Shown here: positions 8,552 through 64,000 of the stretch, in pieces
How positions within the stretch are numbered: position 1 is the first letter of the stretch
How the letters are laid out: each line of letters opens with the position of its first letter
NCBI GenBank assembly: GCA_951406725.2
Contig: OX597822.1
Location: 56,668,001-56,732,000 of the forward strand
Origin: Octopus vulgaris
Taxonomy: Eukaryota
Direction: 5' to 3'
DNA length: 64,000 nucleotides
The notes under the pieces: model-generated
What the model was told of the DNA's origin: nothing
Database searches by the model: none
What the model saw: the letters and a program-made list of their open reading frames with translations, nothing else
Program-made: the position numbers and the translations under genes

Positions 8552-9419
8552 TTCTCTTGCAACGCTTTACATCGTAAAGAGTGGGAAGAGAATAAAAGAG
8601 AGATACAGAAAGAGTTATAACAAATTCAGGATGAGTGCGCATATTAGGAATTGTGGCAGGAACGCTACACATACTCACGCATGCACGCCCGTACACACGT
8701 ACACACGCACACACATACACATGCACACACACAGTGAGATAGAAAGAATCATAGAGACAAAGGGGAATGAAAGGGAATAAATGAGTAGATATGGCGCGAG
8801 TCATACAAATGAGAAATGTGTTTTATTAATTTTATTTTAAAGCAGTAAATATTTACCTGATATTATCCATGCTGGTAAAAGTTTATTTCCGTATTCACTC
8901 ATCATATGAGTAACATGCTAATAAATAAATCACCATCCGCTCTCTATCTCTCTCCCTCCCTCTCTCTCTCTCTCTCTATCAATCTATCTATCTCTCTTTC
9001 TCTCCCTTCCTCTCATTCTGTCTCTTCCTCTCCCTCTCTCTCTCCATATACATACATATATATATATGTTATTTTATTCTTTTATTTGTTTCAGTCAGTT
9101 GTCTGCGGTCCTACTGGAGCACCGCCTTAAAGGGTTTTAGTAGAGCAAATCGACCCCAGGGCTTATTCTTTACAACAAGCTTAGTACTTGCTTTATCGGT
9201 CACTTTCGCTGAACCGCTGATTTACAGGGATGTAAACACACCAATATCTGTTGTCAAGCGATGGGGGTGGAGACTAACACAGACACAAATGCACACACTT
9301 ATAAATGTAAACATACATACATATATATATCAGGCAGAATAAAAAGTAAGCAACGTTTTGAAACATGAAATTTATCACAATATATTTCAAAATATTCGGA
9401 CATTTTATTTATTAAAGTA

Positions 9420-10406
9420 AGCACCATTACAATCAAAACATTTTGCCAACGAGCTACAAGTTTGTTTATTCCAGTAACATAAAAATCTGGAGTTCTGGAG
9501 CTGATGAACTCTTTGGATGCACTCTCAGCGCCGGCTTGATTTTTTAACTCCTCCTCTCGCAGAAAACCATCAAGGGGCTTGAAATAGCGATAGTCGGTAG
9601 GAGAAAGGTCTGGAGAACAAGCTGGGTGAGGAAGAATTTCGTAGCCAACCTCCCTCAATTTCTGGAGCCTCATTAATGAAACCTGTGGTCGAGCATTGTC
9701 ATGAAGAATGATTGGCCCCCTTCTATTGACCAGTCTGTGACGTAGGAGTGTCAGTTTTTCGTAGATTTTGGCAATTTCTGGCAATATGTTTCTGCAGTAA
9801 TGGTTTTTCTGGGTTTTAAGAAGTGAATGACTCCAGCAGTACACCAACAAACAGTCACCATTAACCTTCTTTTTGAAGGGCAGAGGTTTATGGAAGGTTT
9901 TTGGTGTTTCATTTTGGTCCAACCTCTGCAAAGAACGTTTATTACTATTCTACATAATCTGTTCTTCATCGCAAATCACAGTACGGTCGAGAAATGGATC
10001 AGTCTGTTTACGGAGAAGAAGCGACGAACAAATTTCATATCTGCGCATTTTCTGAATTTCGTTGAAATCGTGTGGTACACATTTGTAGGGCTCTTTTGAT
10101 TTTCCGATCGCATGCAAATGCAGGCAGTTTTCTGGCTAACTTGAAGTTCTTTTGCCAGTTCTCGAGTGGTTTTTCGTGGACCTTTCTCAATGACGGTGTT
10201 TAATTGACCGTCATCGATGACAGATGAGCGTCCACTTTGCTCACGATCTTCAAGGTTCAAATCTCCACTGCGAAATCGTTTAAATCATTTTCGAGCTGAC
10301 CAATCACTGGTTATTTCATCACCAAACGTTTCGTTGATATCGCGAGCAGTCCTTTTTTGAAGTTGAATAGCAAAATTGCTTGAATATCCCGCTTTAACAG
10401 TTCCAT
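9420..10406 (-). pseudogene. Mariner DD34D transposase pseudogene
   Basis: MELLKRDIQAILLFNFKKG start, EDREQSGR, HDNARP and HPACSPDLSPTDY motifs; split by frameshifts and stops. Confidence 0.9.
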
Positions 10407-10427
10407 TTCAGTTGATTGTCACAACGA

Positions 10428-11441
10428 TTTCTTTATTGCCCACGGGGAGGATGTCATCTTCCATGACGCTCAGCTTCGTCTCCCCCATCCGTATACAATC
10501 TATGATGTTTTCTAAATCAGCAGGGGCTGCCTGTATAATCATCTCGAGACCTTGCCCCTGCCAGTTTTGCAATTCCAGCGCTTGGGCTTGGAGGATTGTG
10601 ATTTTATCCTCCAAGCAGTTTATTATGGTTGCCACCAGCCAAGTGGGGTCTATTTTGGATGGGATGTCTCCTACCTTAAACTTAGAAGTCTGCCTTCCAA
10701 GATAAGTAGGTAGGAGTACGACCTCCGCGGTTTTTAATGATGTCGTCGACGCTTGTTTCACTTTTTTTCCCGTTTTAAACCTGACTTTTATTGTGGCATA
10801 CTTCACTTCTCTTGTGATGTTTGCCAAGTCATTCCAAACTGGACGGAGGTACTGCTCCACCGACTCCTTACTTTTTTCTGTTTTGCCCTTTTTTTGTTTT
10901 TACAACAAACGACTTGTAAATGACTGTGCATCGTAATGCATTATGAGTGGTTTTACTGGGAAGGGTAATCACAGTTTCGCTCCCCTCCTTTTCATCCTTC
11001 CTTTATAGTTTCCTAACTCGTCACTTCCGTAGTTAATCAACTTTGTTTTGAAATAGTAGCTACTGCTTCAAAATTGTTACCTTTTTTTCCTGCATAAAAT
11101 CTTCTCCAGCCGGCATTTTTATCAATATTGTATTGTTTTATATGCTTTTGGCACTCTCCCAAGAATTTGTACCAGGTTTATTACCATTTTTTAACAATTT
11201 ATCCATGTTTTGTATGTTTTTTTCCACACAATATAACAATATTTTTCCCCTTCACGCAAGGAGGGAAAAAGTTATCAAAACGCTGCCTCAAGCAAAGAAA
11301 TAGGATGTTTTACAAAAGACACTAAACAAAATTTCAACCACGTAACAATCCAACAGTGTAAATTCAACAAATTATCTATTAAACTTATGCCAAACATTTC
11401 GAACAACGCACAAACAACATTCACGATCAAGTCGGCCCAGG
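10428..11441 (-). mobile_element. ORF1(gag)-only L1/Tx1-like element, copy 1 (internally deleted)
   Basis: ORF 10408-10860 aligns by eye with the 62585-63667 protein (VKYATIKVRF..LLPTYLGRQTSKFKVGDIP vs VRHATVWLLF..FLPLYYGRKVIRACVCGLP); ends in CCCCGTGGGCAATAAAGAAA. Confidence 0.7.
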
Positions 11442-11456
11442 TGATTGTAAGAACGA

Positions 11457-12875
11457 TTTTTTTATTACCCACAAGGGGCTAAACACAGAGGGACAAATAC
11501 AAATATATAAATGGGGGCGAAAAAAGACAAACGAATGGGGTAAAGGAAAAAATGAATAATCAAACGGAATGAAGCCACTCGACCCCACATCTGAGTGACT
11601 TCATTTACACATTTTCTTTTACTATTTTTATAAATTTATCATTAAGGTAGTTTAAATTAGACAGCAACTTACTTGCGTTTGCTGTCACGCCTGTGTCCAA
11701 TGTTTGTGTCCCACAGTTTTCCATTAAACCAAAACAATTTGGGGGGGGTGTGCATGTTGGGAAGTTTTGGGGACCTGCCGTTTGCGTTATTGTCGGTATC
11801 AGGAGGGGGCAAGGAGAAGATTGGTAACAGCAGGAGGAGGGTGTGACAGTCGGGATTCACATTTTTTCCTCCTCCTTTTAGCTTGTGTCCATTCCTGCTC
11901 TTCTTCCTTCCCAGGCTCCTCCTCGCTTGTAGATGACTTGACCTGAGGCGGAGGTGCGACTTTTTATTTTGGTTCCTTTGCACTGGGTGGAGAACATTCT
12001 TCCTTAATGAGGCCTTTTTCCCCTACACATAAAACATCTAGGCGTCCTGCCCTCCACCATGACTCTCAAATTGATGCCCTCGTCGACCGTGATGGTCTCC
12101 CCCATATTTTCTAAATATCTCGAGACGGCCTGGCTCACCATTTCCAGGCTCTGCTCTTGCCAATTTCTTGTCAGCATTCCTTTTTCCTGGAGGACCGCAA
12201 TCTGGTCCTCCGTGCTAAATAGGATGGCGGCTACCAACCAGGCAACATCCACTTCAGGAGGATCTTATTTACTATTATCCGAGAAGCACGTCTTCTCTAG
12301 GGTAGCAGGAGCACCTCTTCCGTCTTGGGGGAAGTAACGGCATGCTGTCTAGCCACAGCCTCGGACGCAAACCGCACTTCCACCGTTGCGAACTTTCTCC
12401 CTCTAGGTAGGCAATCCACTTCTTTCCAAATGGGCCGCAGCTCTCATAGCCACCTCTATCCGATGCAGTCTTACGTTGTATATTTTATACAACACCGATG
12501 CTTTGGCTGTCCTTTCGGTAGTTTCCCTGGGAGGGGATTCCTTGACGTTGTTCCTCTCCCTTTTCATCATTTCTTGGAATCTTTCACTTCAAACACACAT
12601 CTTCAGACTACCGTCTCACTGCGTCTGCAAAACTCCTTTTCGTCTCACTCTCTATTTCGTCTAGACATTTCAGCAGCTCCTCCTCAGACGGCGACAGGTC
12701 TGAGTAACTAATTCTCTCCATTTTAACAGCGCTTCCCCCTTCAAACAAAGGGACAGCTCTAACAAAACTGCCATAAGGCAGCAAAACAAGTGTCTCAAGA
12801 CACTACAATTAGTAAGAAATACAACTCAGATTAACCTTCCGCACAAGCAAAATTCACGATCAATTCTGTCACAAA
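11457..12875 (-). mobile_element. ORF1(gag)-only L1/Tx1-like element, copy 2 (decayed)
   Basis: VMVEGRTPRCFMCRGK zinc-knuckle remnant; 5' end similar to copy 1; 3' end TGTGTTTAGCCCCTTGTGGGTAATAAAAAAAA; no RT or endonuclease remnant seen. Confidence 0.7.
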
Positions 12876-14033
12876 TGATTGTAATTACGCTGGAAATTAC
12901 AATCAATGTTAATTTATTGATGCATTTAGGCAGGTCTATGACTGTATTATCAGACAATTCCAAAAAAATGCTTTAAAAATTTCAAAGCTCTGCAAAAATC
13001 CGGTACAAATTCTTCATAGTTCCAAACGTTGCTTATTTTTTTACATAACCTGATACACACACACACACACACACACATATTAATAATATATATACACGAC
13101 AGGCTTCAATGTGTTTCCGTCTACCAAATCCACTCACAAGGCTTTGGTCAGCCCGGAGCTCTAGCAGAAGACGTTTGTCCAAGGTACCACACGGTGGAAC
13201 TGAACCGGGAACCATGCGGTTAGGAAGCAAGCTTCTTACCACACAGCCACGCCGATGCAACATCCTGCCCGTGAAATTAAGGTGCAAGTAGCTGAGCACT
13301 CCGCAAACGCGTACACTTAACATAGTTCTCAGGGTAATTCAGCGTGACGCAGAATGAAACAAAGTTAGCACTTTGAAATACGGGTACTACTCATTGATAC
13401 CAGCTGAATGTACTAGAGTAACATGAAATAAAGTGTCTTGCTCAAGGATGCAATGTACTGCCGGTATTCGAATTCACGACGCAATGGTCTGGAGCAAAAT
13501 ATTCTAGACAGTCGCGCGCAAACAAACAAACATCGACTTGGTCGTATGGTTAAGAAATTCGTTTTCCAACAACATGGTTCTTGGTTCAGTCCAACTGCGT
13601 GGTACTTCAAGCAAGTGTCTGCAACTATAACCTCTGGCTGAGAAAACAATCGTGAGTGAATTTGGTTGACAGAACTCGTAGGGAAGCTTTTCGTGCGTGT
13701 GTGTGTATGCGTGTGTGTGTGTGTATGTGTGCGTGCATGTGTGCTTATTGTTTACGTTGGTGCCGTTTATTCTTTTACTGTTCTAACAGACGATACCTTT
13801 TGGATGTACTTTCATAAATGAACTTTCGATTCTACTCACGGTCAATCACTCTCTGTGTATATATATATATGAGCATGCGTGCGTGATCACCAGCCGAACC
13901 ATCTATCTTTACCCATATATATATATATACTTTATTTAAAAGCAGCAGAAATTCAACAAAACCTGTTACTCGGAGTTTAGATAGATATATAAATAGATAT
14001 ACATATATATATAATTACATACATATATGTATG

Positions 14034-17065: not shown

Positions 17066-18165
17066 TTCGGTCATCCCATAAAAATGCATCTTTTCCTTCT
17101 TTTAATTTTTCAAAATTTAGATAAACAAAGTTCTTTCTTAAGTTAAACTATGCTATCCTTCATTTTCTACAATGCTATTCCATCTATTTGGTAGCCTCTC
17201 TTCAAAAATTCACTTCTCCGTGACGAAAATACTACTCCTGTACTGTTCTGATCTCGTCTACAGAATTCATATTTTCCGTACAAATGATTTTGAAGACGGC
17301 AGAATAAATGATAATCACAAGGAACAATATCCGGCGAATGTTGTGGGTGGGGCATCGTTTCCCATTCAAACTGCTCCAGTCTTTATAATGTCATCCTCGC
17401 TGTATGTGACCAAGCATTATCCTGATAGAAGAACACCTTCCGTCTTGAAACCGAAGATGGTCCTTTTTCTTCTATCGCTGACTTAAGCCGCCAAGATTCT
17501 CGCAGTAGATCTCCTTTATTATCATTTGGTTTAAGTTTAAAAGTTCAAAGTGGACTAAACCTTTCATATCCCACCAAACAGATAACAACACCCTACGTAG
17601 ATGAATAACTTCTTTAGCTTGTTTCTCCTTTCCTTGCCTACTGTCTTCGGCGCTTGACATGTTTATATAGAACCCATTTCTCGTCAGCAGTCACTTATTC
17701 GGTCCAAAAAGGTTCATTCATGAGACATGACATCAAAGAAGTGTACACATTCACTCTCTGCTTGTGGTTAGACTCGGAAAGTTTGTGAGGAATCCATTGA
17801 CTCAATTTGCTAACTTTTCCGATGACCAAATCTAAGCTTCTCTCCAAGTTCTTCAACAGCTACGATGGGATTTTATTCCACCAGGGTTTTCAGGACGTCC
17901 TCGTCGAGCTCTACAGATCTTCCAGGACGAAGCTCGTCTTCTAGGCTATAGTTTCCGGTTCGGAATTTTCTAGAAATTCCGTTGACACTGGATTTCTCTT
18001 ATTGTCCGATCCCCATATACTGCATTAGTATTCTTCGCACTTTCCGTTTCGTTGTTGCCGCTATTGAACTCATAAAGTAAGATACGGCGAATATGCTCCT
18101 TTGTCCCTTTTCCATTAAAGCTTTGAAAAAGTAACTGTTAAAACTGAATTGCACTCTTCAAAACA
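17066..18165 (-). mobile_element. Mariner element, decayed (same family as 58642-59910)
   Basis: LLSVWWDMKGLVHFELL and PHPQHSPDIVPCDYHLF motifs; colinear with the 58.6-59.9 kb copy. Confidence 0.85.
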
Positions 18166-29144: not shown

Positions 29145-29520
29145 GGAGAAATGCTTAGAGGTATTTCATCTGCCGCTACGTTCTGAGTTCAAATTTTTGC
29201 CGAGGTCGACTTTGTCTTCCATCATTTAGGGGTCGATTAAATAATTACCAGTTACGCACTGGGGTCGATATAATCGACTTAATCCGTTTGTCTGTCCTTC
29301 TTTGTTCTCTCTGTGTTTAGCCCCTTGTGGGTAGTAAAGAAATAGGTATTTCGTCTGCCGCTACGTTCTGAGTTCAAATTCTGCCGAGGTCGACTTTGAC
29401 TTTCATCCTTTCGGTGTCGATTAAACAAGTACCAGTTACGCACTGGGGTCGATGTAATCGACTTAATGCCTTTGTCTGCCCTCTCTATATTTAGCCCCTT
29501 GTAGGCAATAAAGAAACATA
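29145..29520 (+). mobile_element. Tandem dimer of Meta-domain-like SINE with AGCCCCTTGTGGGTAGTAAAGAAATA tail
   Basis: Two units joined at AAATAG|GTATTTCGTCTG. Confidence 0.8.
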
Positions 29521-31210: not shown

Positions 31211-32932
31211 TAGTTTTATTTTTATAGCGTGCTTTCACTTCACTACCGAGCGCAGCTCTGTGTGCCTTGGGTATGTGCTGTGATTTGTTGTGATGCTCTG
31301 ATGCTTACTGTATGGAAAGTGTTCTCGTAGGCTGTGTGCAGTGCCTAGTAGTGCAATTTTCTGTATGTTATATGTGTTTGTAAGTCCTGGTGTTTTTGTT
31401 ATGTATTTGTCTGAATATTTTTTTATCATGCCTATGTACCTATTATGATAGGAATTGTTTCTGTTTTCAGGTTCCACATTCTAGTTACCTCTATTTCCAG
31501 GTCTTTGTATTTTGAGAGTTTCTCCATTTCTTTTAGAGACACGTTGTCATCTGCTGGTATTGATACATCATTTAGAAAGCATTTTTTTCTTCATGATCTC
31601 TGACAACTATATCTGGTCTGTTGGCCTTAATTTCTCTATCTGTGTGTATTGGCATATCCCAGAGTATGGTTGCTTTCTCGTTTTCTGTGACCTTTTCTGG
31701 TGTGTGCCTGTACTATCTTTTTTCTGTTGTTTTTTCATAATGTTGGCATAGCTTCCAGTGTATATAGGTCCCAACTCTGTCGTGTCTGTGAATATATTCC
31801 TTCTTAGCCAGGACTGGGCAGCCAGAGATGATATGATTTATTGCTTCTTGTCCATCTCCACATATTCTGCAGTTACTTGTTATATTTCTTTTCATTACAT
31901 GTTTTTGGTAATTTCTGGTGGGGAAGCTTTGGTTTTGTGCTGCAATTAAAAATCCTTCTGTCTCTGCTTTGAGTCCTGAGCTTCTCAACCATTGCTGGGA
32001 TTTTTTTTTGTCTATTTCTTTTACATTTAGTTTACTCCAGTATTTGCCATGAAGGGGATTTTCTTGCCATCGTTTTATCACAGTTCGTTGCTGTTCTATT
32101 TTTAGTTTGGATTTCATTTGTCTTATAGCTTTTGTTTCTTCTTCTTCTTCTTCTTCTTCTTCTTCTTCTTCTTCTTCTTCTTCTTCTTCTTCTTCTTCTT
32201 CTTCTTCTTCTTCTTCATATTTGTTAGGTGGTATGATTACTTGTTTGTATTTGTCAGCTTCCTTAAATACTGAGAACAGTTTTTTGTTTTGCTCGTGTTT
32301 TGCCGCTATTTGTATCAGTTTTCCTTCCTTCCGAAGTAGATATTTTTGCAGTCCTATGGTGGTTATTTTATAGTAGTTTTCCAGCTGCATAAGGCCTCTA
32401 CCACCTTCTATACGTTGTATATATAGCCTTTATATGTCAGATTTTGGGTGATGCATCCTAGATCCTGTCATTATTTTTCTTGTTTTCCTATCTATTTTGG
32501 TCAGTTCATCTAGTGTCCAGTTAAGGATATTGTAGCTGTAACTTATAACTGGGACGGCTAAAGTGTTGATACCTATTATCTTGTTTTTAGCATTGAGCTC
32601 TGTTTTCAGTATTGATCTAACTCGTCTATAATATTCTTTTTTTATTTTCTTTTTCATTTGTGTGTGTTGTGTCTTATCTAGTTCATGGATTCCTAAGTTG
32701 GCTTTGGTCTAATTCTTTTATTTCATTGGTTTTATCTAGTGTGATGTTGCTACTCATAACTAGTTTTCCTCTTTTCAGGGTTACTTTGGCACATTTTTCT
32801 AAACCAAATTTCATATCTATTTCTTTGATAAATCCATTAACTGTCTTTAATAGTGTTTCCAGCTGTTTGTCATTTGTAGCGTATAGTTTCAGGTCATCCA
32901 TATATAAAAGGTGGCTGATCGTTTTGCCGTAT
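31209..32932 (-). mobile_element. 5'-truncated R4/Dong-type REL retrotransposon (subfamily B), decayed
   Basis: YMDD, CRICGDGQEAINHIISGC knuckle, HRHDRVG, IQKIALLGTAH C-terminus; 3' end abuts (TAA)n at 31143-31208. Confidence 0.88.
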
Positions 32933-32947
32933 ATTATTATTATTATT

Positions 32948-35900
32948 CTATGTTTGACTTTTGCTTTATATTTGTACAAGTTGGCTCCAAGTCTCACCCA
33001 GAGACCTCAAGAGACAACAGGGTTGGAAGTTCATGTTGTTGTTATGCCTAGTGTGCCATATATTTGGGGGGTGGGGATGTTGTACTAATGAATGTCTAAA
33101 AAAAAAGTTTTTTTTTTGTTTTTTTTTAAACCGAAAATTATGTTTGTTTTAAACCTTGAGATTACATAGAGAGTATTTTGCGTAGGATATGAGCAGTTCC
33201 CATGAGCACTATCTTTTGAACTTCTGCCATTTTTGGGTTTCCTGTTATCTGAGTTAGGTAGCTATCAGCCCCTTTTGCTATCATTCCCAGGGCACCTATG
33301 ACAACAGGTATTGTTTTAGTCTTCAGCTTCCACATTTTGCTGATTTCTATTTCAAGATCTTTATATTTGCTCAGTTTTTGGTAGGTCTTGACAGATACGT
33401 TTATATCGATTGGGACAGTCATATCAATGAGGAGGCATGTTCTTTGTTTGAAGTTTTTCAATATGATGTCTGGCCTATTTGCATCTATCTTCCTGTCAGT
33501 TTGAATGGTGAAGTTCCAGAGGAGTGAGATGTGGTCATTTTCAAGCACTGGGGGTGGTTTGTGTTCCCACCAGTTTTTTTCATGGGGCAAATCCAGGTTT
33601 TTACAGATTACCCAGTGAATATATTGTGCAGCTCTATCGTGCCTGTTGAGATACTCTGTAGGCGCTAGAAGACTGCACTTGGAGACCACATGGTCAATGG
33701 TTTCATGTTGTTGCTTGCATACACGACACGTTGGACTGCTTCTGATCTTTAATATGTTGGCCTGGTAGTTTCTTGTTGGTAGGCATTGATCTTGAGCTGC
33801 TATGATAAACCCCTCTGTTTCAGATTTTAAGCCAGAGGCCATTAGTCATTGTTGGGTCAGGGCTTTGTCGATATCTGCATTATTCGCTCTCTTTGGGTAT
33901 TTGCCATAGAGAGGTTTTTCTTGCCATTTATTATTCAGAATATCTAAGGCCGCAGTTTTGGCACGGGTTTTCATGCGCCTAGCTTTTTCTGTGCTTGTTT
34001 CTTGTATATCTATCTCTAATTCCGAAATTGGTTGTATTCGGAGTTCACTTAGATATTCCTTTGCCTGTTTTGTGACTGAGTATGATGCTTTCTTGTTTTC
34101 ATGTTTTGAGACAAGTTTTAGCATCCAGTCCTCAGAGTTTTTCAGGTAGGTGTCTAGGCCAATTGTAGCAATCTTCATTGTTATTGCCAGTTGCAAAAGA
34201 CCACGGCCTCCCTCTTTTCTTGGCAGATATAGTCGTTCTGTATCTGCCTTAGGGTGGTGCATTCTATGCATTGTCAACAGTTTCCTTATTTTTCCGTCGA
34301 GCTGACATATTTCAGTAATTGACCAGTTAACAATATTGAAACTGTAAGTCACGACTGGTATAGCTAATGCATTGATTGCTTCGATCCTGTTTCTTGCATT
34401 CAGCTCTGTCTTGAGTATTGCTCTCACTCTTCGATAGCATTCTCTCCTGATCCTTTCCTTCATCTCTGAATGCCTTATTCCGTTCCCTTCAATTATCCCT
34501 AGGTACTTGTAGCTCTCCGCTGGGTCTAGTTCTTTTATGACATTCTGTTGGTCAAGGTTAACGTTAGATGTTTCTGTCATTTTTCCTTTGATAAAGGTAG
34601 CCTTTGCACATTTATCGAGGCCGAATTGCATTCTGATGTCGTCACTGAATTGTTTGACTATCGCTAGTAAGCCCTTGAGTTGTTGATCATTTTTTGCAAA
34701 AAGCTTTAAATCATCCATGTAAACGAGATGATTTATATTTTTATCAAACATTTTATACCCGTACTGCGCGTCATTGAGCAGCTTTGAGAGAGGTATTAAG
34801 GATAAACAAAAGAGGAGTGGTGACAGTGAGTCACCCTGGAAAATGCCACACGAAATTTTTACATCACCAGCATTTAGGGATTCACTGTCACTGTTCAGAG
34901 TTAGTGTGGTTCTCCATGATCTCATACTTACAGTCAAGAAGTTTCGCAGAGTTGGTGCTATCTTATACATTTCAAGGCATTTCCTAATCCAGCTATGTGG
35001 TAGGCTATCAAAAGCCTTTTTATAGTCTATCCAGGCTATTGATAAGTTTTTTTGTGTCGTTTGTGACAATCTTCTAAGATCATCTTATTGATGAGTAGTT
35101 GGTCTTTACAGCCGTAGGATCCATACTTACAGTCAAGAAGTTTCGCAGAGTTGGTGCTATCTTATACATTTCAAGGCATTTCCTAATCCAGCTATGTGGT
35201 AGGCTATCAAAAGCCTTTTTATAGTCTATCCAGGCTATTGATAAGTTTTTGTGTCGTTTGTGACAATCTTCTAAGATCATCTTATTGATGAGTAGTTGGT
35301 CTTTACAGCCGTAGGATCCACGTTTACATCCTTTCTGTTCATTAGGGAATATGCTGCTGTCTGTTAAAAAACTATAGGTATATTCCGTCAGGACAGATGT
35401 TAGTGTTTTGTACATAGTTGTTAAGCAGGTTATGGGTCTATAGTTTTTTGGTTCATTTGTTTCTTCACTTTTTGGAAGCAGGAATGTTAACCCATTAACT
35501 AGCCAAGGAGGCATCCTACTAGGGTGTTGCAAAACATCATTGTACAGTTCTGTTAGCAGTTCATGGCTCTCTGGGAAGGCATTCAGCCAGAAGTTAGGAA
35601 TTTTATCCTTTCCTGGAGACTTCCATTTGCTTGACCTCCTGAGAGCAGATCTTATATCTTCTACCTTGACACCCTCCCACTTTTGCTCTTCTAAGGGGTC
35701 CAGTTCTGTAGATATTCTGTCAATCCAGGGGGCCTTTTCGTTGTGTGTTTTTTCTTCTGCCCAGATTTTATTCCAAAATCTCTGCACTTCTTCTTTTGAT
35801 GGTACAGACCCTGCAGTAAACGCTGTTTTTCCTATCTTCCTGTAAAAATTCTTGGTGTTATTTTTGAACATGTTGTTGTCCTTGAAAAATCTAACACGCT

Positions 35901-37219
35901 TTTCATACCTCGCTATGCGGGCAGCTTTGGCAGATACCTTTTGTTTGATGGTTTCTATGGTGGCATCAATATCAAGTATAGTTTTCATATTGTATTTTTT
36001 CAGTAATTTTGGGGTTTTTGTAGGTTTGGTAATCTTGTGAGCCTTAAGGTTTTTCAAATATTCAATGTCAGATCTAAATATTTTAATTTGTTGTTGCAGA
36101 CGCTCTTGCCAAGAAGGCTTTTTGTGGGACTGTTGCCGTTTTCTAATCTTTACACCACATAGGATCGTTGAGATTTTCGCGGATGCATAGTATAGGTGGT
36201 TGAGGTTTGTGATATCAACATCATTAACTGAAATTATATCCTTAAGTGCAAGCCGGATTTTACCAATTATTTTCATGTTTTGGTTAGAGTTGCGGATTTT
36301 AGGAAGTGTATCACGCTCATCCATGCTGGTTTCTTTAATTTTCAGCCATTCAATCATGATTTGATTTTTTAGCTCATGTAGTTCTGTTGGGTCAATATTT
36401 GTGTGACTTTCTTTATCTATTTGATGCTCATCTGTCTTAGTGTTTATGATTGGTTCAGGGCGTATTTCACTTTGCCTATCACTTATACTAACTCTTTCAA
36501 TCCTCTCTTCGTTTTTATCCGCCCTGGGCTGGTCTATAATCATTTCCTCTGTATTATCTTCTCTAGCTGCAGCTTCGTTCATTTTATCCGATATTGCTTG
36601 TCTAACCTGATCAATCTCTACTTCAGTCAGTAATTTCTTTTTTATAATGTTTCTTCTAACATTGGCAAGCTTGTTACTGTCTATGTAGGGTCTTACTTCA
36701 GGGTGTTTCTGTCTCCAGTTTAAGTATGCTTGTACAGTGCTAGACTTATCTGTGGGGAAATATATGGCATGGTAGAAGGCCTCAAGAACTTCTTTATTAT
36801 CTTCCCTAGACCATTTTTCTTTCTTTTTCTTTTGATTATTTGGTGATGAGCATGGATGGCCATCTGTTGGAATATTCCGGTTGTGGGGTTCGTCCAGCTC
36901 CTGTGTGTTGGGAAGATTTGATCCAGTAACTGATTTTTCAATCAGGATTTGGTTCAATTTTCGGGTACGTGGTCTTTTGTAATCCGCGCAATGACCAATG
37001 CGGTTTATTGTTTGATTTGTTGACCTTGAAGCATGACGAGCATTCATTCTTATATTAGGAGATGGATCTGTCAGTTTAGGGTTCACTACATGTAAGCATT
37101 GCTCATAGCGCCGCTTCTTAAGACTAGCAGATCTATATTCGTCTGTATTTTTTTTGTTGATAGTTTTATCTCCGGACATTTTTTTTTTTTTTTCCCTTTC
37201 CTCCTCTTCCCTTTTCCTC
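32948..37219 (-). mobile_element. Near-full-length R4/Dong-type non-LTR retrotransposon (subfamily A)
   Basis: Single long ORF architecture, about 200-nt 3' UTR, (TAA)n at both ends. Confidence 0.92.
33162..37179 (-). pseudogene. RT / zinc-knuckle / restriction-like endonuclease polyprotein, disrupted by a tandem duplication and one stop
   Basis: NYRPITCL, WIDYKKAFDS, GIFQGDSLSP, YMDD, CRVC..HVVSKC, RHD, RPDIIL..LIDMTVP..K..KY; TGA at 33846-33848 where the paralog has Trp (QQWL); duplication at 34923-35318. Confidence 0.92.
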
Positions 37220-37263
<44 letters not shown>

Positions 37264-37299
37264 ATTATTATTATTATTATTATTATGATTTTTATTATT

Positions 37300-37997
37300 A
37301 CTTTTTTTCTTCTTTCAAATTTGCTTCCATTTCTTGCCGAGTATCTTCCCGACTCCTAGGGCAAAGAAACTCATAGTATACATTGGTAGGCCATTAAACT
37401 AAAGTCAATAGTTCGTTCATTTTTTTTTTTTAAGTTAAATTAAAATACATGAGCAGCAACAGTTCTCAAATCGACAATGCTCTTCTCAATACGTGTGATG
37501 TACAGTTAAGACAATCTTTTGCACTTCTTGCAGGGATGGTAAGCCAGGGATCATTCTCATATAATTTTCGGTTCCCTTCTTGATCATTCCTACTGCTCCT
37601 ACGATCACTAGTATTGTAACCGCCTTGAGATGCCACATTTTCTCAATTTCAATGAGTAGGTCTTTATATTTTCTGAGCTTGTCAAACTCTTTCGCTGAGA
37701 TATTATGATCACAGGGGATGTTCATGTCGATCAATAATCAAACTTTATTGTTTTGGTCTTTCACAACAATATCTGGTTTATTGGCCTTGATGGTTCGGTC
37801 TGTATGTACTGGAAAGTCCCACAGAATGGTTACATTTTCTCCTTCAGTTACAGCCTCAGGGTGGTGATTATACCACTTGTCGGCAGTTTTGATATTGTAA
37901 TGCCGACTTATTAGCCAGTGTAGATATTGGCCAACTCTGTCATGTCTTAATTTATACTCCACTGGTGCTAAGACTTTACATCCAGAGATTAGGTGGT
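37300..37997 (-). mobile_element. R4/Dong-type 3' fragment (subfamily C; REL domain and 3' UTR)
   Basis: RHDRVG, ILWDFPVHTDRTIKANKPDIVV, IDMNIP, KYKDL; (TAA)n on both sides. Confidence 0.85.
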
Positions 37998-41363: not shown

Positions 41364-41956
41364 CAAGCTGGCAGAAACGTTACCACGCCAGGCGAAATGC
41401 GTAGCCGTATTTCGTCTGCCGTTACGTTCTGAGTTCAAATTCCGCCGAGGTCGACTTTGCCTTTCATCCTTTCGGGGTCGATTAAATAAGTACCATTTAC
41501 GCACTAGGGACGATGTAATCGACTTAATCCGTTTGTCTGTCCTTGTTTGTCCTCTCTGTGTTTAGCCCCTTGTGGGTAGTAAAGAGATAGGTATTTCCTC
41601 TGTCGCTACGTTCTGAGTTCAAATTCTGCCAAGGTCGACTTTGCCTTTCATCCTTTCGGGGTCGATTAAATAAGTACCAGTTACGCACTGGGGTCGATGT
41701 AATCGACTTAATCCGTTTGTCTGTCCTTGTTTGTCCCTTCTGTGTTTAGCCCCTTGTGGGTAGTAAAGAAATAGGTATTTCGTCTGCCGTTACGTTCTGA
41801 GTTCAAATTCCGCTGAGGTCGACTTTGCCTTTCATCCTTTCGGGGTCGATAAATTAAGTACCAGTTACGCACTGGGGACGATGTAATCGACTTAATCCGT
41901 TTGTCTGTCCTTGTTTGTCCTCTCTGTGTTTATCCCCTTGTAGGTAGTAAAGAAAT
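41364..41956 (+). mobile_element. Meta-domain-like SINE trimer with 15-bp target-site duplication
   Basis: One head plus three body/tail units of about 185 bp; AGGTAGATTGTCTGG at 41349-41363 and 41957-41971. Confidence 0.88.
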
Positions 41957-42596
41957 AGGTAGATTGTCTGGAGGCTTTTCCACTTTTTTCACAGATTTTA
42001 TTTTAATCTCGTTCACTATCGAGAAAATTATGTAACGAGTAAATGGTTTTAGTTACTGCCACCCAGTGATAAAAGTAGTTGTACTGTTTTACATGGTAAA
42101 ATGAAACCTGACCTAACGTTATATAAATGTCTATTATCAAAATACAATCCATGGATGAAAACAGTAGCAACAGTATCAGTGTTGTAAGTCAAAATGAGGA
42201 ATGAATATATATATATATGCGCAAATACATATAGTATGTATAGCATTTAAATTAAAGTTATCTGTTATGTGTGGCTATAAGTTTCACACTACACGATCTT
42301 ATCAAAAGAATGGGGAAAGATTTAGTTGTTAAAATTACAAAAAAAATATGGGTTATATTAAAATAACCTATAAACTCCAACAGCTGACTAAATATCTCAT
42401 TTATTTGTTAAGCTCATATAGAGTGAAGCATATGGCCAGCTGTAACGAATCATTCTTATTTTAATATAACGTAATGTAATATAAAGTAGTACATAATATT
42501 CTTCTCAACATACAACCTCATTCCGTGTCCTTTATTATTGACTTCTAGTTCTAAATTTTACACACATACCGACATTCACACACTCACACACACACA

Positions 42597-43084: not shown

Positions 43085-43361
43085 ATAATTGTTTAAAATG
43101 CTTTCTATAACATCAGTCTCCACATTTGGTATTAAATTATTCTAAAGTAAACTTTGCTTTCTAACACGCCTTGTGATGAGGCTACTATTTATCTATCATA
43201 TTCTCCAAACACGTTTTTACTGTGATATAAGTCTGACATTCGAAGTTAACTGAAAATTAAGCTACATTGACATGAAGACAACCAAATTGGTTCTTATAAT
43301 AAACTTCTGTTTCTTTTTCTTTTTTCTTCAGAGTTTCGTCATCATTTGAACCATTCATATC

Positions 43362-44851
43362 ATGGAAGGACTGAAATATATTTTCATAATTTTTCTGTTA
43401 AAAATTTACGTCCATGCAGAAGACCCGATTATTCAAACTAATAAAGGTAAGATTAAAGGATCAACAGTTTTAATTCAAGGTGTTGAAGTTGATGTCTTTC
43501 TTGGAATACCATTTGCTCGACCTCCCGTTGGTAATCTAAGATTTAGACATCCTCAACCAGCTAGACCATGGTCTGGTGTGAAAGAAACAAAGAAATATGT
43601 TTCGTCGTGTGTACAAGTTAAAGACACTACATTCGGGGACTTTGAAGGTGCAGAAATGTGGAATCCAAATACTGTTATGAGCGAAGATTGTCTTTATTTG
43701 AACATTTGGGCGCCATCAGAAGCAAGAAAGTCTCGTTCACAGTTAGCTACCATGATTTGGATATTTGGAGGTGCATTTATGTCTGGATCAAGCACGCTGG
43801 ATATATATGATGGACGATGGTTAGCTGCTAGTGAAAATGTCATCGTTGCATCACTAAATTATAGATTAGGACCATTTGGCTTCCTTTCCTTGAATAACGT
43901 ACGTGCTCCCGGTAACATGGGATTATTAGATCAAACCCTTGCTATACAATGGATTCGTGATAACATTTTATCGTTCGGTGGCGATCCTAAAAAACTGACA
44001 CTATTTGGAGAAAGTGCTGGTTCTGGATCAGTTAGTCTGCACGTCGTTTCCCCACTTTCTCAGAGGCTTTTCAGGAATGCTATTATGATGAGTGGTTCGG
44101 CAACAGCAACGTGGGCAACTGTGCCTGTAGAGAAAAACATTGAAAGAGCGAAAGTGATGGCTGATTTCCTTAAGTGTCCAACCGAGAATACTACATCGAT
44201 GATAGATTGCTTTCTAGAAGCTGATGCTCATAAACTTGCAAACGCGCAGTTTCATAATTTAGATAGTTTCCTACCTTATACTTTAAGCCCTATTGTTGAC
44301 GGCGCTTTCTTGACACAGAAACCAATAGAATCTCTGAAAAATGAACCACAGAAAAAGGATGTGTTACTTGGCTATGTCACAAACGAAGGAACCTATTTTC
44401 TTATCTATGATCTACCGAAATATTTCTCCTTGAAAGGAACTGTTCCGATAAACAAATCTACCGCAGGCAAATTGATTAATAAGGTAATCGCACCGTTACG
44501 TGCAAATTCTGTGCAGTTGGATTTAATATCTTATCTTTATGGTTCTCATGTCTACGGCTCTTCTGAAACTGACAAATACAGATACATATTGGACCAAGCA
44601 TCAGGAGATGTCAAATTTAAATGTCCTGTTATCGAATTTGCCCAGGAATACAGCAAACATGCCAAAGTTTATATGTATTCTTTCGAATTTCGATCGAGAT
44701 TAAATCCTTGGCCGGAATGGGCCGGTGTGATGCATGGGTATGAGATTGAATTCCTATTTGCTCAAACGTTATCTGGAAAAAATTATTCAAAAGAAGGAAA
44801 TTTAGTAACAAAAAGGACGACAAGTCTTTTTGCAAACTTTTCTAAGTCGGG
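43362..44851 (+). CDS. ache: Acetylcholinesterase-like cholinesterase, first and major coding exon (protein incomplete at the C-terminus)
   Basis: Signal-peptide-like N-terminus, FLGIPFA, EMWNPN (W84), SEDCLYLNIW, FGESAG (Ser codon 44013-15), NEGTYF (Glu), GVMHGYEI (His). Polypyrimidine/AG acceptor at 43330-31; GTAAGT donor at 44852 after ANFSKSG. Orthology to canonical ache is not established. Confidence 0.93.
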
Positions 44852-45187
44852 GTAAGTTTACTTTGCTTTGTTATATTATTGTCTTTCATTTGTTTTAAAT
44901 TCTTATTCTCCCGATCTTATTCCATCTACAAAAGAATGCACATTCATTCACTGCAAACATGTGCCGTCTTTATATACACACCATGTACTCACATATACAT
45001 ACACTCACAAACTCACATGTACCACCATCCCACAAAATCCTACGCATATACAGACATTATTATGATAATGTAAAGTAATTCATTTGGAAATTAATGTATA
45101 AATGATTTATTTTAACAATATGTGTGTATTCTTTTATTCTTTTATACGTTTCAGCCCTACGGCAAAAGCCATGCTGAGGCATCACAG

Positions 45188-47416: not shown

Positions 47417-48830
<1,414 letters not shown>

Positions 48831-49333
48831 TTGTTGTCGTTGAGTGACAGCGATGTATGCCATCAAAGTGATACTGGGATGCAAATATACAAAGCCCAAT
48901 ATACCCATCATGACTACTCGTCTGATGAGGGTACACCAGGTACATGCATCACAACCATATGTGCGAAACATGGTAAACTTGTATCAAGATAAACAACGCA
49001 TGCCCTTGCTCGTGGGGCCATACTAGGAATTTTCTCAGGTTGAGTAACCCATCCCACTCAAAAGGTCTCTGAATAAGAGTTGTTTAAGGATGATGAACGA
49101 AAGACCCATGCTTCCAGAAGTGAATTATTCAACCCCCCCAAAAAAATTCCTCTCAACACATGAGTATGATGCTTCCTCACTACCCCTGCTGCTGATCAAA
49201 GATGCACATATCGTCAATAACTAAGGGACACGTTCAACTGGTTAAGGTCAAACAGCTAACAAACAAATCTGCGGTTTTGAGCAGGATATTTGTTGTATCC
49301 CATCTTTTATTATCATTATTATTATTAGTAGTA

Positions 49334-49451
<118 letters not shown>

Positions 49452-49470
49452 CAGCAGCAGCAGCAGCAGC

Positions 49471-49532
<62 letters not shown>

Positions 49533-49539
49533 CAGCATT

Positions 49540-50855
49540 TACTTTTAATCTGCATCTTTGTTACAGTCACTTGCCGAAACATCCCCAACGTCCTGGGGCA
49601 AGTGAAAGATAAGAGATGTTATGATGTGACTGAAAGCTTGAGAAGGTAGTGAAATATCTTCATGTAGTACAACACATACATTTAAATGGGCAGGGTTTTT
49701 CTAAGGATGTGGGCAGCACTTGTCAGCACAATCTTTTGGATTTCTCTGAGACATGGTTCTCCTGGGATCTTATCTAGATGTCTCTAACAGGAACAGTTCT
49801 CGTTTTAAGATGCTGCATCTTTTGTATTTCAATTTCCAGGTCCTTATATTTACTTAGTTTGTCAAATTCCTTGACACATGTTTTTATCAGTAGGAACTTG
49901 TATTAGTCTACAAGTATTTTCTTCCCAGTATTTGATAATTAAGTCTGGTTGATTAGCCTGGATGGTTCTGTCAGTGTTGACTGGAAAATCCCAGAGGATA
50001 GTGACACTTTTACCTTCAACGACTGGCTCAGGATGATGTACGTACCAGTAAGTAGGAGTACTGCTTTTGTATTGTTTACATATTTTCCAATGTAAATACT
50101 GTCCTACTTAATCGTGGCGATTTTTATATTCGTTTGGTGTCAGCACAGGACATCCCGAGACGAGATGGTCTATTGTTTCGTCAAATGTTTTGTAGAACCT
50201 GCATTTAGGGTCAGAACAATTTTGAAGAACGTTAACCTGGTAGTTTTTTGTGAGCATGCTTTGGTCTTGTGCCACCAATATGAAACCTTCAGTTTCTGCT
50301 TTCAGTCCTGAGCTTCTCAGCCACTAGTGTGTTGTTCCTTGATCTACATAAGCATTTCGACTTCGAAGTATATACTATCCATGCAGAGATTTCTGGCTCC
50401 ATCGTCCCACAATTTGTTTCTGCCCGTTCTTTTTTGCAGTCTGCTTGATCCATTTTGCTTGCTTTGTGTCAGTGGTTTCAGGTTCTTCAACTATTACAGA
50501 GTTAATGCCAAGTTCCCTTGTGAATTTGCAAGCTTCCTTGACAATCGAATGACATTTTGCTGCTTTCGTGTTTGCACACATGTTGCAGCGTCCAGTCTTC
50601 TGTACTAGATAAGTACCTGTTCATTGCTATTGTGAAGATCTTATAGCACAGTTCTACTTGCATCATTCCTCTTCCTCCATTACTTCTAAGTAGGTACAAA
50701 ATTCAACATCTGCTTTTGGGTAGTACATGTTCTAACAAGTAAGCATTTTTCTTGTTTTCCTGCCCAGGCGTTAGAGCTCTATAAGATTCCAGTTAATGAT
50801 GTTGAAACTATATTGGACTACCGAAAGCTCCAGGATGTTAATGGCCTCGATGCGA
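49540..50855 (-). mobile_element. R4/Dong-type 3' fragment (another subfamily), decayed
   Basis: YLLRSNGGRGM, WSQKSLHG, knuckle and ILWDFPV..PDLII remnants; (TAG)n/(TAA)n flanks. Confidence 0.8.
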
Positions 50856-50897
50856 TTTATTATTATTATTATTATTATTAATAATATTATTATTATT

Positions 50898-50968
<71 letters not shown>

Positions 50969-51096
50969 GAAGACGAAGGAGGAGGAGGAGGAGAAGAAGA
51001 AGAAGAAGAAGAAGAAGAAGAAGAAGAAGAAGAAGAAGAAGAAGAAGAAGAAGAAGAAGAAGAAGAAGAAGAAGAAGAAGAAGAAGAAGAAGAAGA

Positions 51097-52213: not shown

Positions 52214-52286
<73 letters not shown>

Positions 52287-52463: not shown

Positions 52464-52546
<83 letters not shown>

Positions 52547-52804: not shown

Positions 52805-52849
<45 letters not shown>

Positions 52850-53805: not shown

Positions 53806-53888
<83 letters not shown>

Positions 53889-61835: not shown

Positions 61836-64000
61836 TGTTACTTTATTAGCCATACAGGGTTGCACACAGACGGGACAGATTACAAAGTAGAGCTTTTCTA
61901 TTTGGGGAGAAAAAAAAAGTAAGGGTAGGTTTTCGGTCATAAGGGATCGTAAAAAGGGGAAAACCGATCAATAGGGATCGTGTATCACAGAAATGTCATG
62001 ATGTAAAGTGTAAAGATGGAAGCAGATAGGTTTATTCGTGGAAGGAAAAGCCTATGGAAAAGACCACGGTAACCTCGGTCAATAATGTTACATGTTATCT
62101 CATTTGTTTGCAAGTAAGTAACCCTCTGTTTTAATTTTTCCGGGTTCATGGGATAAAGCTACTTTATTTCCTCGAATTGACCATGAAGGTTGTACATAGA
62201 TAAAGGTAGCTGTGGGCTGGACAGAGACATTAATGAGTATGAAAACGACAAAGATGGAAAAAAAATAATAATGGGAGGGGCACCGGCGCCCGCCGACCGA
62301 TAATCCCTCGAAATCATTGTTCAATTTAAATCAATATAAATCAAAATTATAATTTAAAAAATTGAAAAATTGAAATTACACATTACAAAAATATATTTTT
62401 CATTATTCTTCGTCTTCCTCATCCGGGCTTCCAAGTACGTTTGCTGCCGCCTGCAGGAAAGCCTGCATCGGCTGGCTCGGACCGAGGGAAACAAAATCTT
62501 CTTTGTTACAGGTCTTGCTGACCTCAATCAGTTCTTTCTGATTTATGACGTCCGCAGCCACCTGCGGAGGCCAGCTTGGACAGTCTATACAGTCGAGTCA
62601 TATCCCTTTCGGTCTAGTAGACTGTCCAAGTATAACTCCACAGGCCCTCCCTTGAGATAGAGAATGACAAACTCTTCCTCACAGAGAGGGATCTCATCCT
62701 GTTCTGTCAGTGGCACAGTTCCCACTAACAGAGCCTCTCGCTCCGGTGGCACACTTCCCACCGGTGGAACATCGGGTTCGTTCGACGGTACGGCGACATC
62801 CGCTGACCGTCTCCCGTTTTTCTTCTTCCTCTTTTTTCTTCTTTCGGTTGCGGGAGTCGGGGCCTCCGTCGGCACATCCGAGGGGTCCTCCTCCTTTCCC
62901 GCAACCTGCACGTCTACTGGTGAGCAACCACCGTTGCTCACCTTTCTCTTTCTTCTCGTTGAGGTCGACAACTCAACGACTTCCTCCGTTTCTCCCTGCA
63001 ATGGGCGAGCGGAGTGCACCTTCCCCTTTTCCTGCTCCGGAGCCTTATCACGGTTCCGGGGGCAGTCCTTCTTGACATGGCCTGACTCCCAGCACGAGTG
63101 ACACTTGGTGGGGAGGCGACCCTCCAAAATCACTGGATACCTGGAGCCAACCATCCTCAAAAAGTCGGGGTAGGTTTTTTTGCCTGCGGCCTCTGGGGTC
63201 CACAGAGTCAAAGTTGCTTTTGCACCCTCCCAGTTGACCGCAGGCGTCACTCTTACATTTAAGAGCCTGGACCTGCTATCCCCCAGGCCGCCTATCCAAT
63301 CCGCCTCTATGCCCGGGGGTAGCCCACATACACAGGCTCTTATCACCTTCCTCCCGTAATACAACGGGAGGAACAATATTTCTTTTCCCTCCAAAGGCTG
63401 ACTTGCAAAATTGCCAGCCTCCTCCCTGGTGTTGAACAGCAACCACACCGTTGCATGCCTGACGCCCCGGGATATATATTTTACAGGGGACAAATAGTAT
63501 TTTAGTTCTTTTTCAATGGTTTGTTTTGTGAAGACGGTGATGGTATCAAAAACTTTAGAGTAAGTTCTAACCACCACCGTCCTCTCCTCCATATCTTTTA
63601 ACCACTGCTTAGGCGGGTTAATTTGCCACTCCAAGACAGAGTTCTTTTTAAGTTCCTTCTCTGCCATGTCCCCCCCACAAAAAAAACAGATCAAAAGTAG
63701 TTCAAAAAACAGTCCGCCAAAAAATTAAAACCGAAAAAATAGAAGTAAAACAAAATAAAAGAGAAGGAAAGGAAACTGAAATTTAAATAATGAAAAGAAT
63801 TATCCAAAATTTAGAAAGAAAGAAAAAATAGAAGGTAAAAAAATAAAATAAAAACTTCACAAATAGAACAGACGGAGCCCTTTGTACAATACTCCAAAAG
63901 GTAATCCAATAGTCTGGGTTATTCTTGAAGTACTCCAGTTCGGAAAAATTTCACTTTTTCTAGCGAGATACGCCCACTAGAATTTACAAATTATTTGGCG
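61835..64000 (-). mobile_element. ORF1-only L1/Tx1-like retroelement, copy 3 (5' end uncertain or outside the window)
   Basis: Open ORF1, about 750 nt with no recognisable RT or endonuclease, then AACCCTGTATGGCTAATAAAGTAACA joined to (TATC)n. Confidence 0.7.
62585..63667 (-). CDS. Gag-like / LINE ORF1 nucleic-acid-binding protein with CCHC zinc knuckle (360 aa from first ATG)
   Basis: CHSCWESGHVKKDC (CX2CX4HX4C) preceded by VILEGR; RRM-like N-terminal region; basic tracts RRKRK and RRKKRKKK. Confidence 0.8.
   Translation of the reverse strand: MAEKELKKNSVLEWQINPPKQWLKDMEERTVVVRTYSKVFDTITVFTKQTIEKELKYYLSPVKYISRGVRHATVWLLFNTREEAGNFASQPLEGKEILFLPLYYGRKVIRACVCGLPPGIEADWIGGLGDSRSRLLNVRVTPAVNWEGAKATLTLWTPEAAGKKTYPDFLRMVGSRYPVILEGRLPTKCHSCWESGHVKKDCPRNRDKAPEQEKGKVHSARPLQGETEEVVELSTSTRRKRKVSNGGCSPVDVQVAGKEEDPSDVPTEAPTPATERRKKRKKKNGRRSADVAVPSNEPDVPPVGSVPPEREALLVGTVPLTEQDEIPLCEEEFVILYLKGGPVELYLDSLLDRKGYDSTV

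What the first reader, a model, noticed from the sequence alone, without database searches (positions are those of the whole stretch)
9330..13053. Two ORF1-only retroelements inserted head-to-tail at one repeated target motif inside a mariner 5' UTR
Seen: the mariner TIRs are 3.7 kb apart, and about 2.45 kb of extra sequence lies just upstream of the transposase ATG (10406). It consists of two diverged gag-bearing elements. All three junctions carry a related motif on the minus strand: GCGTAATTACAATCATTTG (about 12872-12890), TCGTTCTTACAATCACCTG (11438-11456) and TCGTTGTGACAATCAACTG (10409-10427). The two elements also share a 5' block (TTGATCGTGAAT..TG.TTGTGC). Established: Tx1-clade LINEs are often target-specific, and Xenopus Tx1L inserts into a DNA transposon. 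Inference: a site-specific retroelement family parasitises this mariner, regenerating the target so that insertions stack.
Basis: partly seen in the sequence, partly recalled or inferred. Interest (0 to 1): 0.8.

Follow-up and report, generated by a model that had tools for sequence, protein, structure and literature searches.

The report
Half-LINEs stacked before mariner transposase start
In this octopus genome two different cut-down retrotransposons that carry only their RNA-binding gene sit head to tail at the same base just in front of a mariner transposon's start codon, which likely reflects targeted insertion of a kind already described in crocodilians.

Summary
An octopus DD34D mariner (9330-13053) carries two diverged ORF1-only non-LTR elements, A (12889-11456) and B (11455-10427), head to tail and in sense, 20 bp before the transposase ATG. 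Contigs from two public runs show a very high-copy mariner whose empty site has one motif; it aligns with motif 3, and 12902-13053 is the true 5' arm. Both 3' tails end at the same base of an 18-nt motif. A's tail is shared with a common SINE, which is not followed by the motif (0 of 6 copies). A and B are only 58% alike in ORF1 but 82-90% alike over their first 50 nt, motif included, so motifs 1 and 2 are likely an element-borne leader rather than plain target duplications. ORF1 relatives fold as two RRMs plus one CCHC knuckle. No RT partner was found, so Tx1 membership is unproven, and the flanks of other copies could not be counted. A third ORF1-only element in the window has a homologous tail but a microsatellite flank. 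Precedent: Tx1-Mar/SINEU in crocodilian Mariner-N4, and HAL1. Verdict: real, likely target-specific, a variant of a known kind.

The parts
12902..13053 (-). Mariner 5' arm with 5' TIR (about 13013-13053); TA at 13054-13055
   Evidence: depth about 48,000-58,000 in X1 and joints from 10417-10428 to 12902-12906
12890..12901 (-). 12 junction letters not found in empty mariners (which have 11 other letters); with 12902-12905 they form one arm of a perfect 11-bp inverted repeat 12905-12895 / 12886-12876
   Evidence: table 5c
12872..12889 (-). Motif 1, start of element A (13 of 18 to the mariner motif; 15 of 18 with paralog letters)
11456..12889 (-). Element A, 1434 bp: conserved 5' leader, decayed ORF1 (RRM-RRM-CCHC core about 12567-12013, low-complexity linker after it), no ORF2, 3' tail
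11456..11497 (-). 3' tail of A, 88-95% identical over 38-43 nt to the tails of six SINE copies in the window
   Evidence: depth 5.1 million in this bin in X1
11438..11455 (-). Motif 2, start of element B and 3' flank of A (15 of 18 to the mariner motif)
10427..11455 (-). Element B, 1029 bp: conserved 5' leader, ORF1 core open 10899-10408, deleted from before the zinc knuckle to the last 17 nt of the tail (10443-10427)
10409..10426 (-). Motif 3, the mariner's own 5' UTR sequence and the likely target; ends 2 bp before the ATG
   Evidence: empty-copy contigs align through 10424-10428 and then join 12902-12906
9405..10406 (-). Decayed DD34D mariner transposase (stops and frameshifts)
9330..9369 (-). 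Mariner 3' TIR; TA at 9328-9329
61841..64000 (-). Element C (outside the finding; 5' end not located, may lie beyond the window): related ORF1-only element, ORF1 63667-62585 nearly intact, homologous 3' tail followed by an (ATCT)n run, no mariner

Best explanation
A and B are two ORF1-only non-LTR retroelements lying head to tail at one base of a mariner 5' UTR; they were likely inserted one after the other, in trans, by the target-specific endonuclease and reverse transcriptase of a not yet identified full-length LINE, probably of the Tx1 clade. Shown: the anatomy; the single motif in empty mariners; both 3' tails ending at the first base of the motif; no ORF2 in either element; a 3' tail shared with a SINE; a conserved 50-nt 5' end whose first 18 nt resemble the mariner motif. 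Inferred: the partner's RT recognises the shared tail and primes at a nick just before the motif. B went in first, and the target-like leader at its 5' end was then used as the site for A. The leader was captured from the target by an ancestor that sat in this mariner, and it is now inherited with the element, so each full-length insertion supplies a new site. Further inferred and untested: sitting in sense 20 bp before the ATG lets the elements use the mariner's promoter and blocks transposase expression from that copy.
For: Empty site: the listed joints from 10417-10426 to 12902-12905 are carried by 15 contigs in X1 and 20 in X18 (5 of the 15 joint rows shown, 237 rows not shown), and table 5c gives the letters between. 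The mariner without the insert is 1260 bp. Same base: both tails end ...AAAT directly before CGTT. Two different elements: 231 of 395 aligned bases are identical in the ORF1 core, whereas the listed paralogous contigs of the mariner, A and B differ from the window by about 14-18% (table 8), so A and B did not arise by duplication inside this mariner. Element-borne leader: over the first 50 nt A and B match at 40 of 49 aligned bases in the window and 44 of 49 with the letters that paralogous contigs show; after the motif they match each other at 26-28 of 31 but the mariner at 12 of 31-32. All 6 contigs in X1 and all 3 in X18 that cover 12886 carry a letter different from the window's, and X18 depth is the same at 12886 and 12897 (148.7), so other A-like copies also begin with the motif. 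ORF1: 567 relatives at E<=0.001; 16 of the 30 representatives looked up carry a species name, 15 Octopus and 1 Argonauta. A relative models as two RRM-like folds plus a knuckle (pLDDT 84; tandem-RRM hits), and 22 of 56 aligned members hit zf-CCHC at E<=1. O. vulgaris is reported to have 80 L1-Tx1 families, 13 recently active (PMC13282606). Precedent for the whole habit: PMC4494074.
Against: Only one filled locus was read in full. The 3' flanks of other A and B copies could not be seen (1487 loose ends and 237 joints were not shown), so the share of copies at the mariner is unknown. No ORF2 or RT partner was found, and RRM+CCHC ORF1 is not unique to Tx1 (PMC5203782 passages). The elements have no poly(A) tail, and SINE-shared tails in molluscs are reported for CR1, CR1-Zenon, L2 and Nimb partners, with Tx1 not mentioned (PMC11481361, PMC4824008 passages). 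The SINE with the same tail is not followed by the motif (0 of 6 in the window; the consensus over 544-548 contigs is another sequence), and element C with a homologous tail has a microsatellite flank, so the tail alone does not give this target. The leader argument rests on few letters and on a table that shows 40 of 1164 differences. The 12 junction letters at 12890-12901 are unexplained. No RNA evidence was examined.
Confidence: 0.58

Rival explanations
1. Same target-specific insertion, but motifs 1 and 2 are ordinary 18-bp target-site duplications that have since mutated.
For: There are three copies for two inserts, exactly as sequential TSDs would give; 13-15 of 18 identity; tandem insertions sandwiching a 16-bp TSD are described in PMC4494074.
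Against: Motifs 1 and 2 share T7 against G7 in motif 3. With paralog letters motif 1 is 16 of 18 to motif 2 and 15 of 18 to motif 3. A-B similarity runs on without a break for 30 more bases that the mariner lacks. The margin inside the motif itself is only one base.
Confidence: 0.2
2. One event, not two: A and B were already joined (read-through transcript of a tandem master locus, or a template jump from B to A during reverse transcription) and were inserted once at the mariner motif.
For: A's tail abuts B's first base without extra letters; template jumps and 5' extensions are discussed in PMC4494074.
Against: It still needs a target-like leader and a 3' junction at the look-alike site, so it does not remove the link to the mariner. 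Depth across the insert is very uneven (153-1034 in X1), with one contig only at 11749-11852, so a common A-B unit is not evident.
Confidence: 0.1
3. Hitchhiking: one mariner copy acquired the inserts and the composite was multiplied by transposase in trans, so the paralogous A-like 5' ends are not independent insertions.
For: Both TIRs are present; the listed mariner, A and B paralogs are similarly diverged from the window, about 14-18% (table 8; a biased sample of the longest contigs above 80%).
Against: One A-like contig in each run (1072 and 1057 nt) matches 11864-12400 and then runs about 530 bases unlike the window, and a B-like contig diverges beyond 11044, so paralogs differ in structure. 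It also leaves the double hit at one base unexplained.
Confidence: 0.08
4. Chance nesting of two unrelated insertions in a repeat-rich genome.
For: The window is dense in repeats and the mariner is very abundant.
Against: Two tails end at the same base of an 18-mer that also opens both elements; pairwise P is 3e-4 or lower.
Confidence: 0.04

Closest known systems
Tx1-Mar LINEs and SINEU-1/2/3 in crocodilian Mariner-N4_AMi (Kojima 2015, PMC4494074; parts 1-4 of 5 read)
   Same: Non-LTR elements prefer fixed sites in an abundant mariner family; non-autonomous passengers; tandem insertions with a target copy between them; a SINEU-2B subfamily has a mariner-derived 5' extension; transcription from the flanking mariner is proposed.
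   Different: Here the passengers encode ORF1 and have no snRNA-derived head (no relevant Rfam hit). The host is a transposase-coding mariner hit 20 bp before its ATG. There is no poly(A) tail, the tail is shared with a SINE that is not at this target, and the autonomous partner is unidentified.
HAL1 (half-L1), ORF1-only non-autonomous L1 derivatives of mammals (passages in PMC5753468)
   Same: Non-autonomous non-LTR element encoding ORF1p only.
   Different: ORF1 here is Type I (RRM + CCHC), not the mammalian Transposase_22 type. No target preference of HAL1 appears in the passages read. The parent LINE is not shown here.
Xenopus Tx1L inserting into the piggyBac-type element Tx1D (as cited in PMC4494074)
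   Same: A non-LTR element whose target is a DNA transposon.
   Different: Tx1L is autonomous, with an APE-RT ORF2 (recalled); A and B have none, and their clade is untested.
Drosophila HeT-A (recalled, no call)
   Same: Gag-only non-LTR element in head-to-tail arrays at a fixed kind of site, using another element's RT.
   Different: HeT-A adds to chromosome ends and is jockey-clade; here the site is an internal sequence motif in a mariner.

Membership tests
Tc1/mariner, mariner (DD34D) | DDE transposase with D34D spacing and Mos1-type HTH | tested here: met
   HTH_48 E 2.8e-5, Transposase_1 E 9.7e-7; spacing 34
Tc1/mariner, mariner (DD34D) | TIRs, TA target duplication, about 1.3 kb | tested here: met
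   29-nt arms 86% complementary; TA at both ends and 1260 bp without the insert
ORF1-only non-autonomous LINE (HAL1-like) | LINE-type ORF1 present, ORF2 absent | tested here: met
   ORF1 homology; at most about 500 bp between the ORF1 core region and the tail in A and none in B; no Pfam hit at E<=0.5 in the three minus frames of 11456-11950
ORF1-only non-autonomous LINE (HAL1-like) | 3' end shared with an autonomous parent LINE | tested here: inconclusive
   The tail is shared with a SINE and with element C, but no autonomous LINE with this tail was found; no genome held
ORF1-only non-autonomous LINE (HAL1-like) | Amplified as a family with the deletion fixed, not a one-off deletion of a full LINE | tested here: inconclusive
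   About 2-18 related contigs cover parts of A and B, but A's 3' part has one contig only and one paralog continues in unlike sequence; C is a third ORF1-only case
Tx1 clade | APE-RT ORF2 that groups with Tx1 in an RT tree | not testable with these tools
   No ORF2 in the elements; no fused ORF1-ORF2 found (weak searches); no neighbouring DNA for the relatives
Tx1 clade | Type I ORF1 (RRM + CCHC) | tested here: met
   Model of relative P0003 with tandem RRM-like folds; zf-CCHC in 22 of 56 members; ZCCHC3-like clusters in the Atlas at 0.90. Compatible with Tx1 but not diagnostic (PMC5203782 passages)
Tx1 clade | Sequence-specific insertion (Kojima's criterion: over 20% of flanks of one kind) | tested here: inconclusive
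   2 of 2 A/B 3' ends in the window are at the motif; A-like 5' ends in 6 and 3 contigs cover the motif; genome-wide flanks were not countable
SINEU | U1/U2 snRNA-derived head, short and non-coding | tested here: not met
   The only Rfam hit at E<=5 in 10300-13100 is a microsatellite-driven match outside the elements; the elements are 1.0-1.4 kb and encode ORF1

The most novel reading that the evidence does not exclude
Octopods hold a large radiation of ORF1-only retroelements that share one 3' tail (one RT supply) with a hugely abundant SINE but go to different targets. The ORF1 protein kept in cis, with a portable 18-nt copy of the target at the element's 5' end, would decide where each family lands. 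The A/B lineage would be a hyperparasite that switches off mariner copies, takes over their promoter and rebuilds its own landing site with every insertion.
Probability: 0.12. Interest if true: 0.7.

Novelty: new variant of a known kind. Interest (0 to 1): 0.4.

Why it matters
It would extend mariner-targeting retrotransposition from crocodilians to a mollusc, and add ORF1-only passengers to a habit described, in the papers read, for full LINEs and SINEs. The site is unusually telling: 20 bp before the transposase start, in sense, where an insertion would both gain a promoter and disable the host copy. Because a SINE with the same tail is not at this site, the system gives a natural test of whether targeting comes from the endonuclease alone or also from ORF1 and the 5' leader. 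The principle itself (retroelements aiming at other mobile elements and stacking) is known, which limits the surprise.

Tried and rejected
No whole genome is held, so flank counting was impossible. Word-based protein searches were weak: B's ORF against longer proteins found nothing, C's ORF found one O. sinensis protein, and the 56-row alignment against proteins of 1508-4305 aa found nothing. None of the 26 longer relatives scanned has an RT or endonuclease domain. Pattern scans for the 5' block (metagenomes), the mariner target (bacterial genomes) and the tail (viral contigs; bacterial genomes) gave 0 matches. Locus searches with distant ORF1 relatives gave no confirmed locus. The two raw-read runs X23 and X24 had no depth on the mariner transposase and were uninformative. 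A conserved C-terminal motif seen by eye in several ORF1 relatives could not be shown in A or C: HMM scores were not significant, so I do not claim that A's ORF1 reaches 11560. Folding of the 5' ends and tails gave no significant structure (z -1.8 to +2.1), and no ribozyme or snRNA head was found. The 11-bp inverted repeat at the 5' junction is real (0 in 30 shuffles), but a second such stem lies at 10586, so I draw no mechanism from it. Local tandem duplication of one element was rejected because A and B are far more diverged than the mariner family. A paper search for ZCCHC3+Tx1+ORF1 gave 0 papers, so the ZCCHC3 likeness is not used to assign a clade.
Full report
Source. The window is from an octopus-like genome: the best relative of a window ORF1 is an Octopus sinensis protein at 56% identity, and 16 of 30 relatives looked up carry a species name, 15 Octopus and 1 Argonauta. 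No whole genome is held.

Host element. On the minus strand a mariner runs from 13053 to 9330. The TIR arms are 86% complementary over 29 nt and both ends read TA|TCAGG. The transposase starts at 10406, is broken by stops and frameshifts, hits HTH_48 and Transposase_1 and has D34D spacing. I laid four public runs on 9325-13058 at 80% likeness. The two raw-read runs had no depth on the transposase and were uninformative. In the two contig sets the mariner bins have summed depth 45,872-95,897 (X1) against 62-66 for contigs nearly identical to this locus. The insert bins have 153-1034, apart from the SINE-tail bin. The tool warns that summed depth is no copy number, so I read this only as hundreds-fold against few-fold. 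Five of the 15 joint rows shown (237 not shown) link 10417-10426 to 12902-12905, carried by 15 contigs in X1 and 20 in X18. Table 5c gives the letters between, which amount to 11 bases in place of window 12890-12901. Empty copies therefore have one motif, aligning with motif 3, and 12902-13053 is the family's 5' arm. The empty element is 1260 bp.

Inserts. A is 12889-11456 (1434 bp) and B is 11455-10427 (1029 bp). Both carry pieces of one ORF1 family, which has 567 relatives at E<=0.001 among 50%-identity representatives. A relative (P0003) folded with a 56-row alignment gives pLDDT 84. Its best Foldseek hits are tandem-RRM proteins (Sxl RRM1-2, E 2e-5, TM 0.48 by target), and VIA-align gives Z 9.1, rmsd 2.3 over 78 residues for the first domain. 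Twenty-two of 56 members hit zf-CCHC at E<=1. This is a Type I ORF1 in the scheme quoted in PMC5203782 (passages), compatible with Tx1 but not diagnostic. A keeps a knuckle-like motif across a frameshift near 12030. B stops just before the knuckle and joins the last 17 nt of the tail. No ORF2 was detected in A's 3' 500 bp, and there is no room for one in B.

Ends. Both A and B end ...AAAT directly before CGTT, the first bases of motifs 2 and 3. None of the six SINE tails is followed by the motif, and the consensus after the tail in 544-548 contigs is a stretch of the SINE's own 5' part. At the 5' end A and B match at 40 of 49 aligned bases over their first 50 nt, against 231 of 395 in the ORF1 core. 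One search lists letters in which paralogous contigs differ from the window at 12847, 12864, 12874, 12886 and 11436; with these the match rises to 44 of 49. After the 18-nt motif, A and B match each other at 26-28 of 31 but the mariner at 12 of 31-32. Inside the motif both have T at position 7 where motif 3 has G. All contigs covering 12886 (6 in X1, 3 in X18) differ there from the window, and X18 depth is unchanged from 12886 to 12897, so other A-like copies begin with the motif and align at least a few bases further up. I could not see whether they continue into a mariner arm. This favours a leader inherited with the element over a fresh duplication, but it rests on few letters and on 40 rows shown of 1164.

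Why targeting is likely. If the motifs are plain duplications, A hit exactly the base that B had hit. If they are element-borne, B's 3' end landed at an 18-mer that is 15 of 18 like its own first bases. Both readings need a site preference. Local duplication is excluded because A and B are about 42% diverged, while the listed paralogs of mariner, A and B differ from the window by about 14-18% (table 8, a biased sample). I put target preference of some form at about 0.8, the leader version at about 0.58, and a Tx1 partner at about 0.6. The Tx1 guess rests on ORF1 type, on the known habit of the clade, and on the 80 L1-Tx1 families reported for O. vulgaris (PMC13282606, parts 1-2 of 3 and a search of its one supplementary file). 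Against it are the lack of poly(A) and the fact that mollusc SINE tails in the passages read are tied to CR1, CR1-Zenon, L2 and Nimb (PMC11481361, PMC4824008, PMC4758252; passages).

A third element. At 63667-62585 lies a nearly intact ORF1 homologous to B (23%, E 7e-12). It is followed after about 700 bp without ORF2 by a tail homologous to A's (score 46, best of 1000 shuffles 37) and an (ATCT)n run. ORF1-only elements with this tail thus recur within 64 kb and are not all tied to the mariner. Whether (ATCT)n is a target or the element's own tail repeat is open.

Comparison. Kojima 2015 (PMC4494074, parts 1-4 of 5 read) describes Tx1-Mar LINEs and SINEU elements in Mariner-N4_AMi: 313 of 347 near-full SINEU-3 copies are flanked by it, tandem copies sandwich a TSD, one subfamily has a mariner-like 5' extension, and transcription from the flanking mariner is proposed; its supplementary figures were not seen. 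HAL1 is the known ORF1-only form (PMC5753468, passages). My nine answered paper searches showed no description of this octopus system or of a target-specific ORF1-only element. Most were seen as listings only. Repbase reports, the Zenodo library and subscription journals are not covered, so it may already be annotated. PMC8967140 and PMC3747384 were read as passages and add only that L1-Tx1 and mariners are present in coleoids and that the Tx group is target-specific. Earlier notes of this scan list several Tx1 or SINE families aiming at other mobile elements in other genomes, unchecked here; none concerns this genome or sequence.

Verdict. The feature is real and most likely records target-specific, sequential insertion of ORF1-only retroelements into the mariner's 5' UTR. 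It works like Tx1-Mar/SINEU, but membership of Tx1 is unproven and the genome-wide flank count is missing. New variant of a known kind; interest 0.4.

Noticed in passing
window 61841-64000 (-): Third ORF1-only element (C) with a nearly intact 360-aa ORF1 and a tail homologous to A's, followed by (ATCT)n rather than a mariner.
   Followed up: partly
window 41407-41961 (+), 29161-29514 (+): The 184-bp SINE unit stands in head-to-tail arrays (3 and 2 copies). In 544-548 contigs of two runs the consensus after the tail is a stretch of the SINE's own 5' part, suggesting self-insertion or tandem amplification on a large scale. Its likeness to Nin/Deu-domain SINEs is recalled, not tested.
   Followed up: partly
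window 12876-12905: Perfect 11-bp inverted repeat with an 8-nt loop across the mariner/A junction; the 12 non-mariner junction letters may come from a fold-back copy. A second 11-bp stem lies at 10586.
   Followed up: partly
window 33162-37314 (-): Large single-polyprotein RT element with a C-terminal zinc finger and what looks like a restriction-like endonuclease end (R4/Dong-like by recall); part of the RT region appears twice (two RVT_1 hits). A related fragment lies at 31713-32429.
   Followed up: no
window 43350-44855 (+): 501-aa open frame with a full carboxylesterase domain (E 1e-137), cholinesterase-like by recall, in one long exon.
   Followed up: no
window about 58700-59900 (-) and 17280-18000 (-): Two decayed mariners of another family (about 27% aa identity to the host mariner); the one near 59740 has no insert before its ATG and lacks the motif.
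   Followed up: partly
proteins P0004, P0012, P0013, P0027, P0031, P0042, P0111: Full-length ORF1 relatives share a short C-terminal motif (L-K-x-x-F-P-x-D-V type) after a long low-complexity linker, with no Pfam match in those scanned; possibly an undescribed C-terminal domain.
   Followed up: partly
proteins P0051, P0077, P0144, P0135: Octopus gene models in which pieces of this ORF1 are joined to LDL-receptor, WD40 or integrase domains; probably annotation chimeras, but exonisation was not excluded.
   Followed up: no
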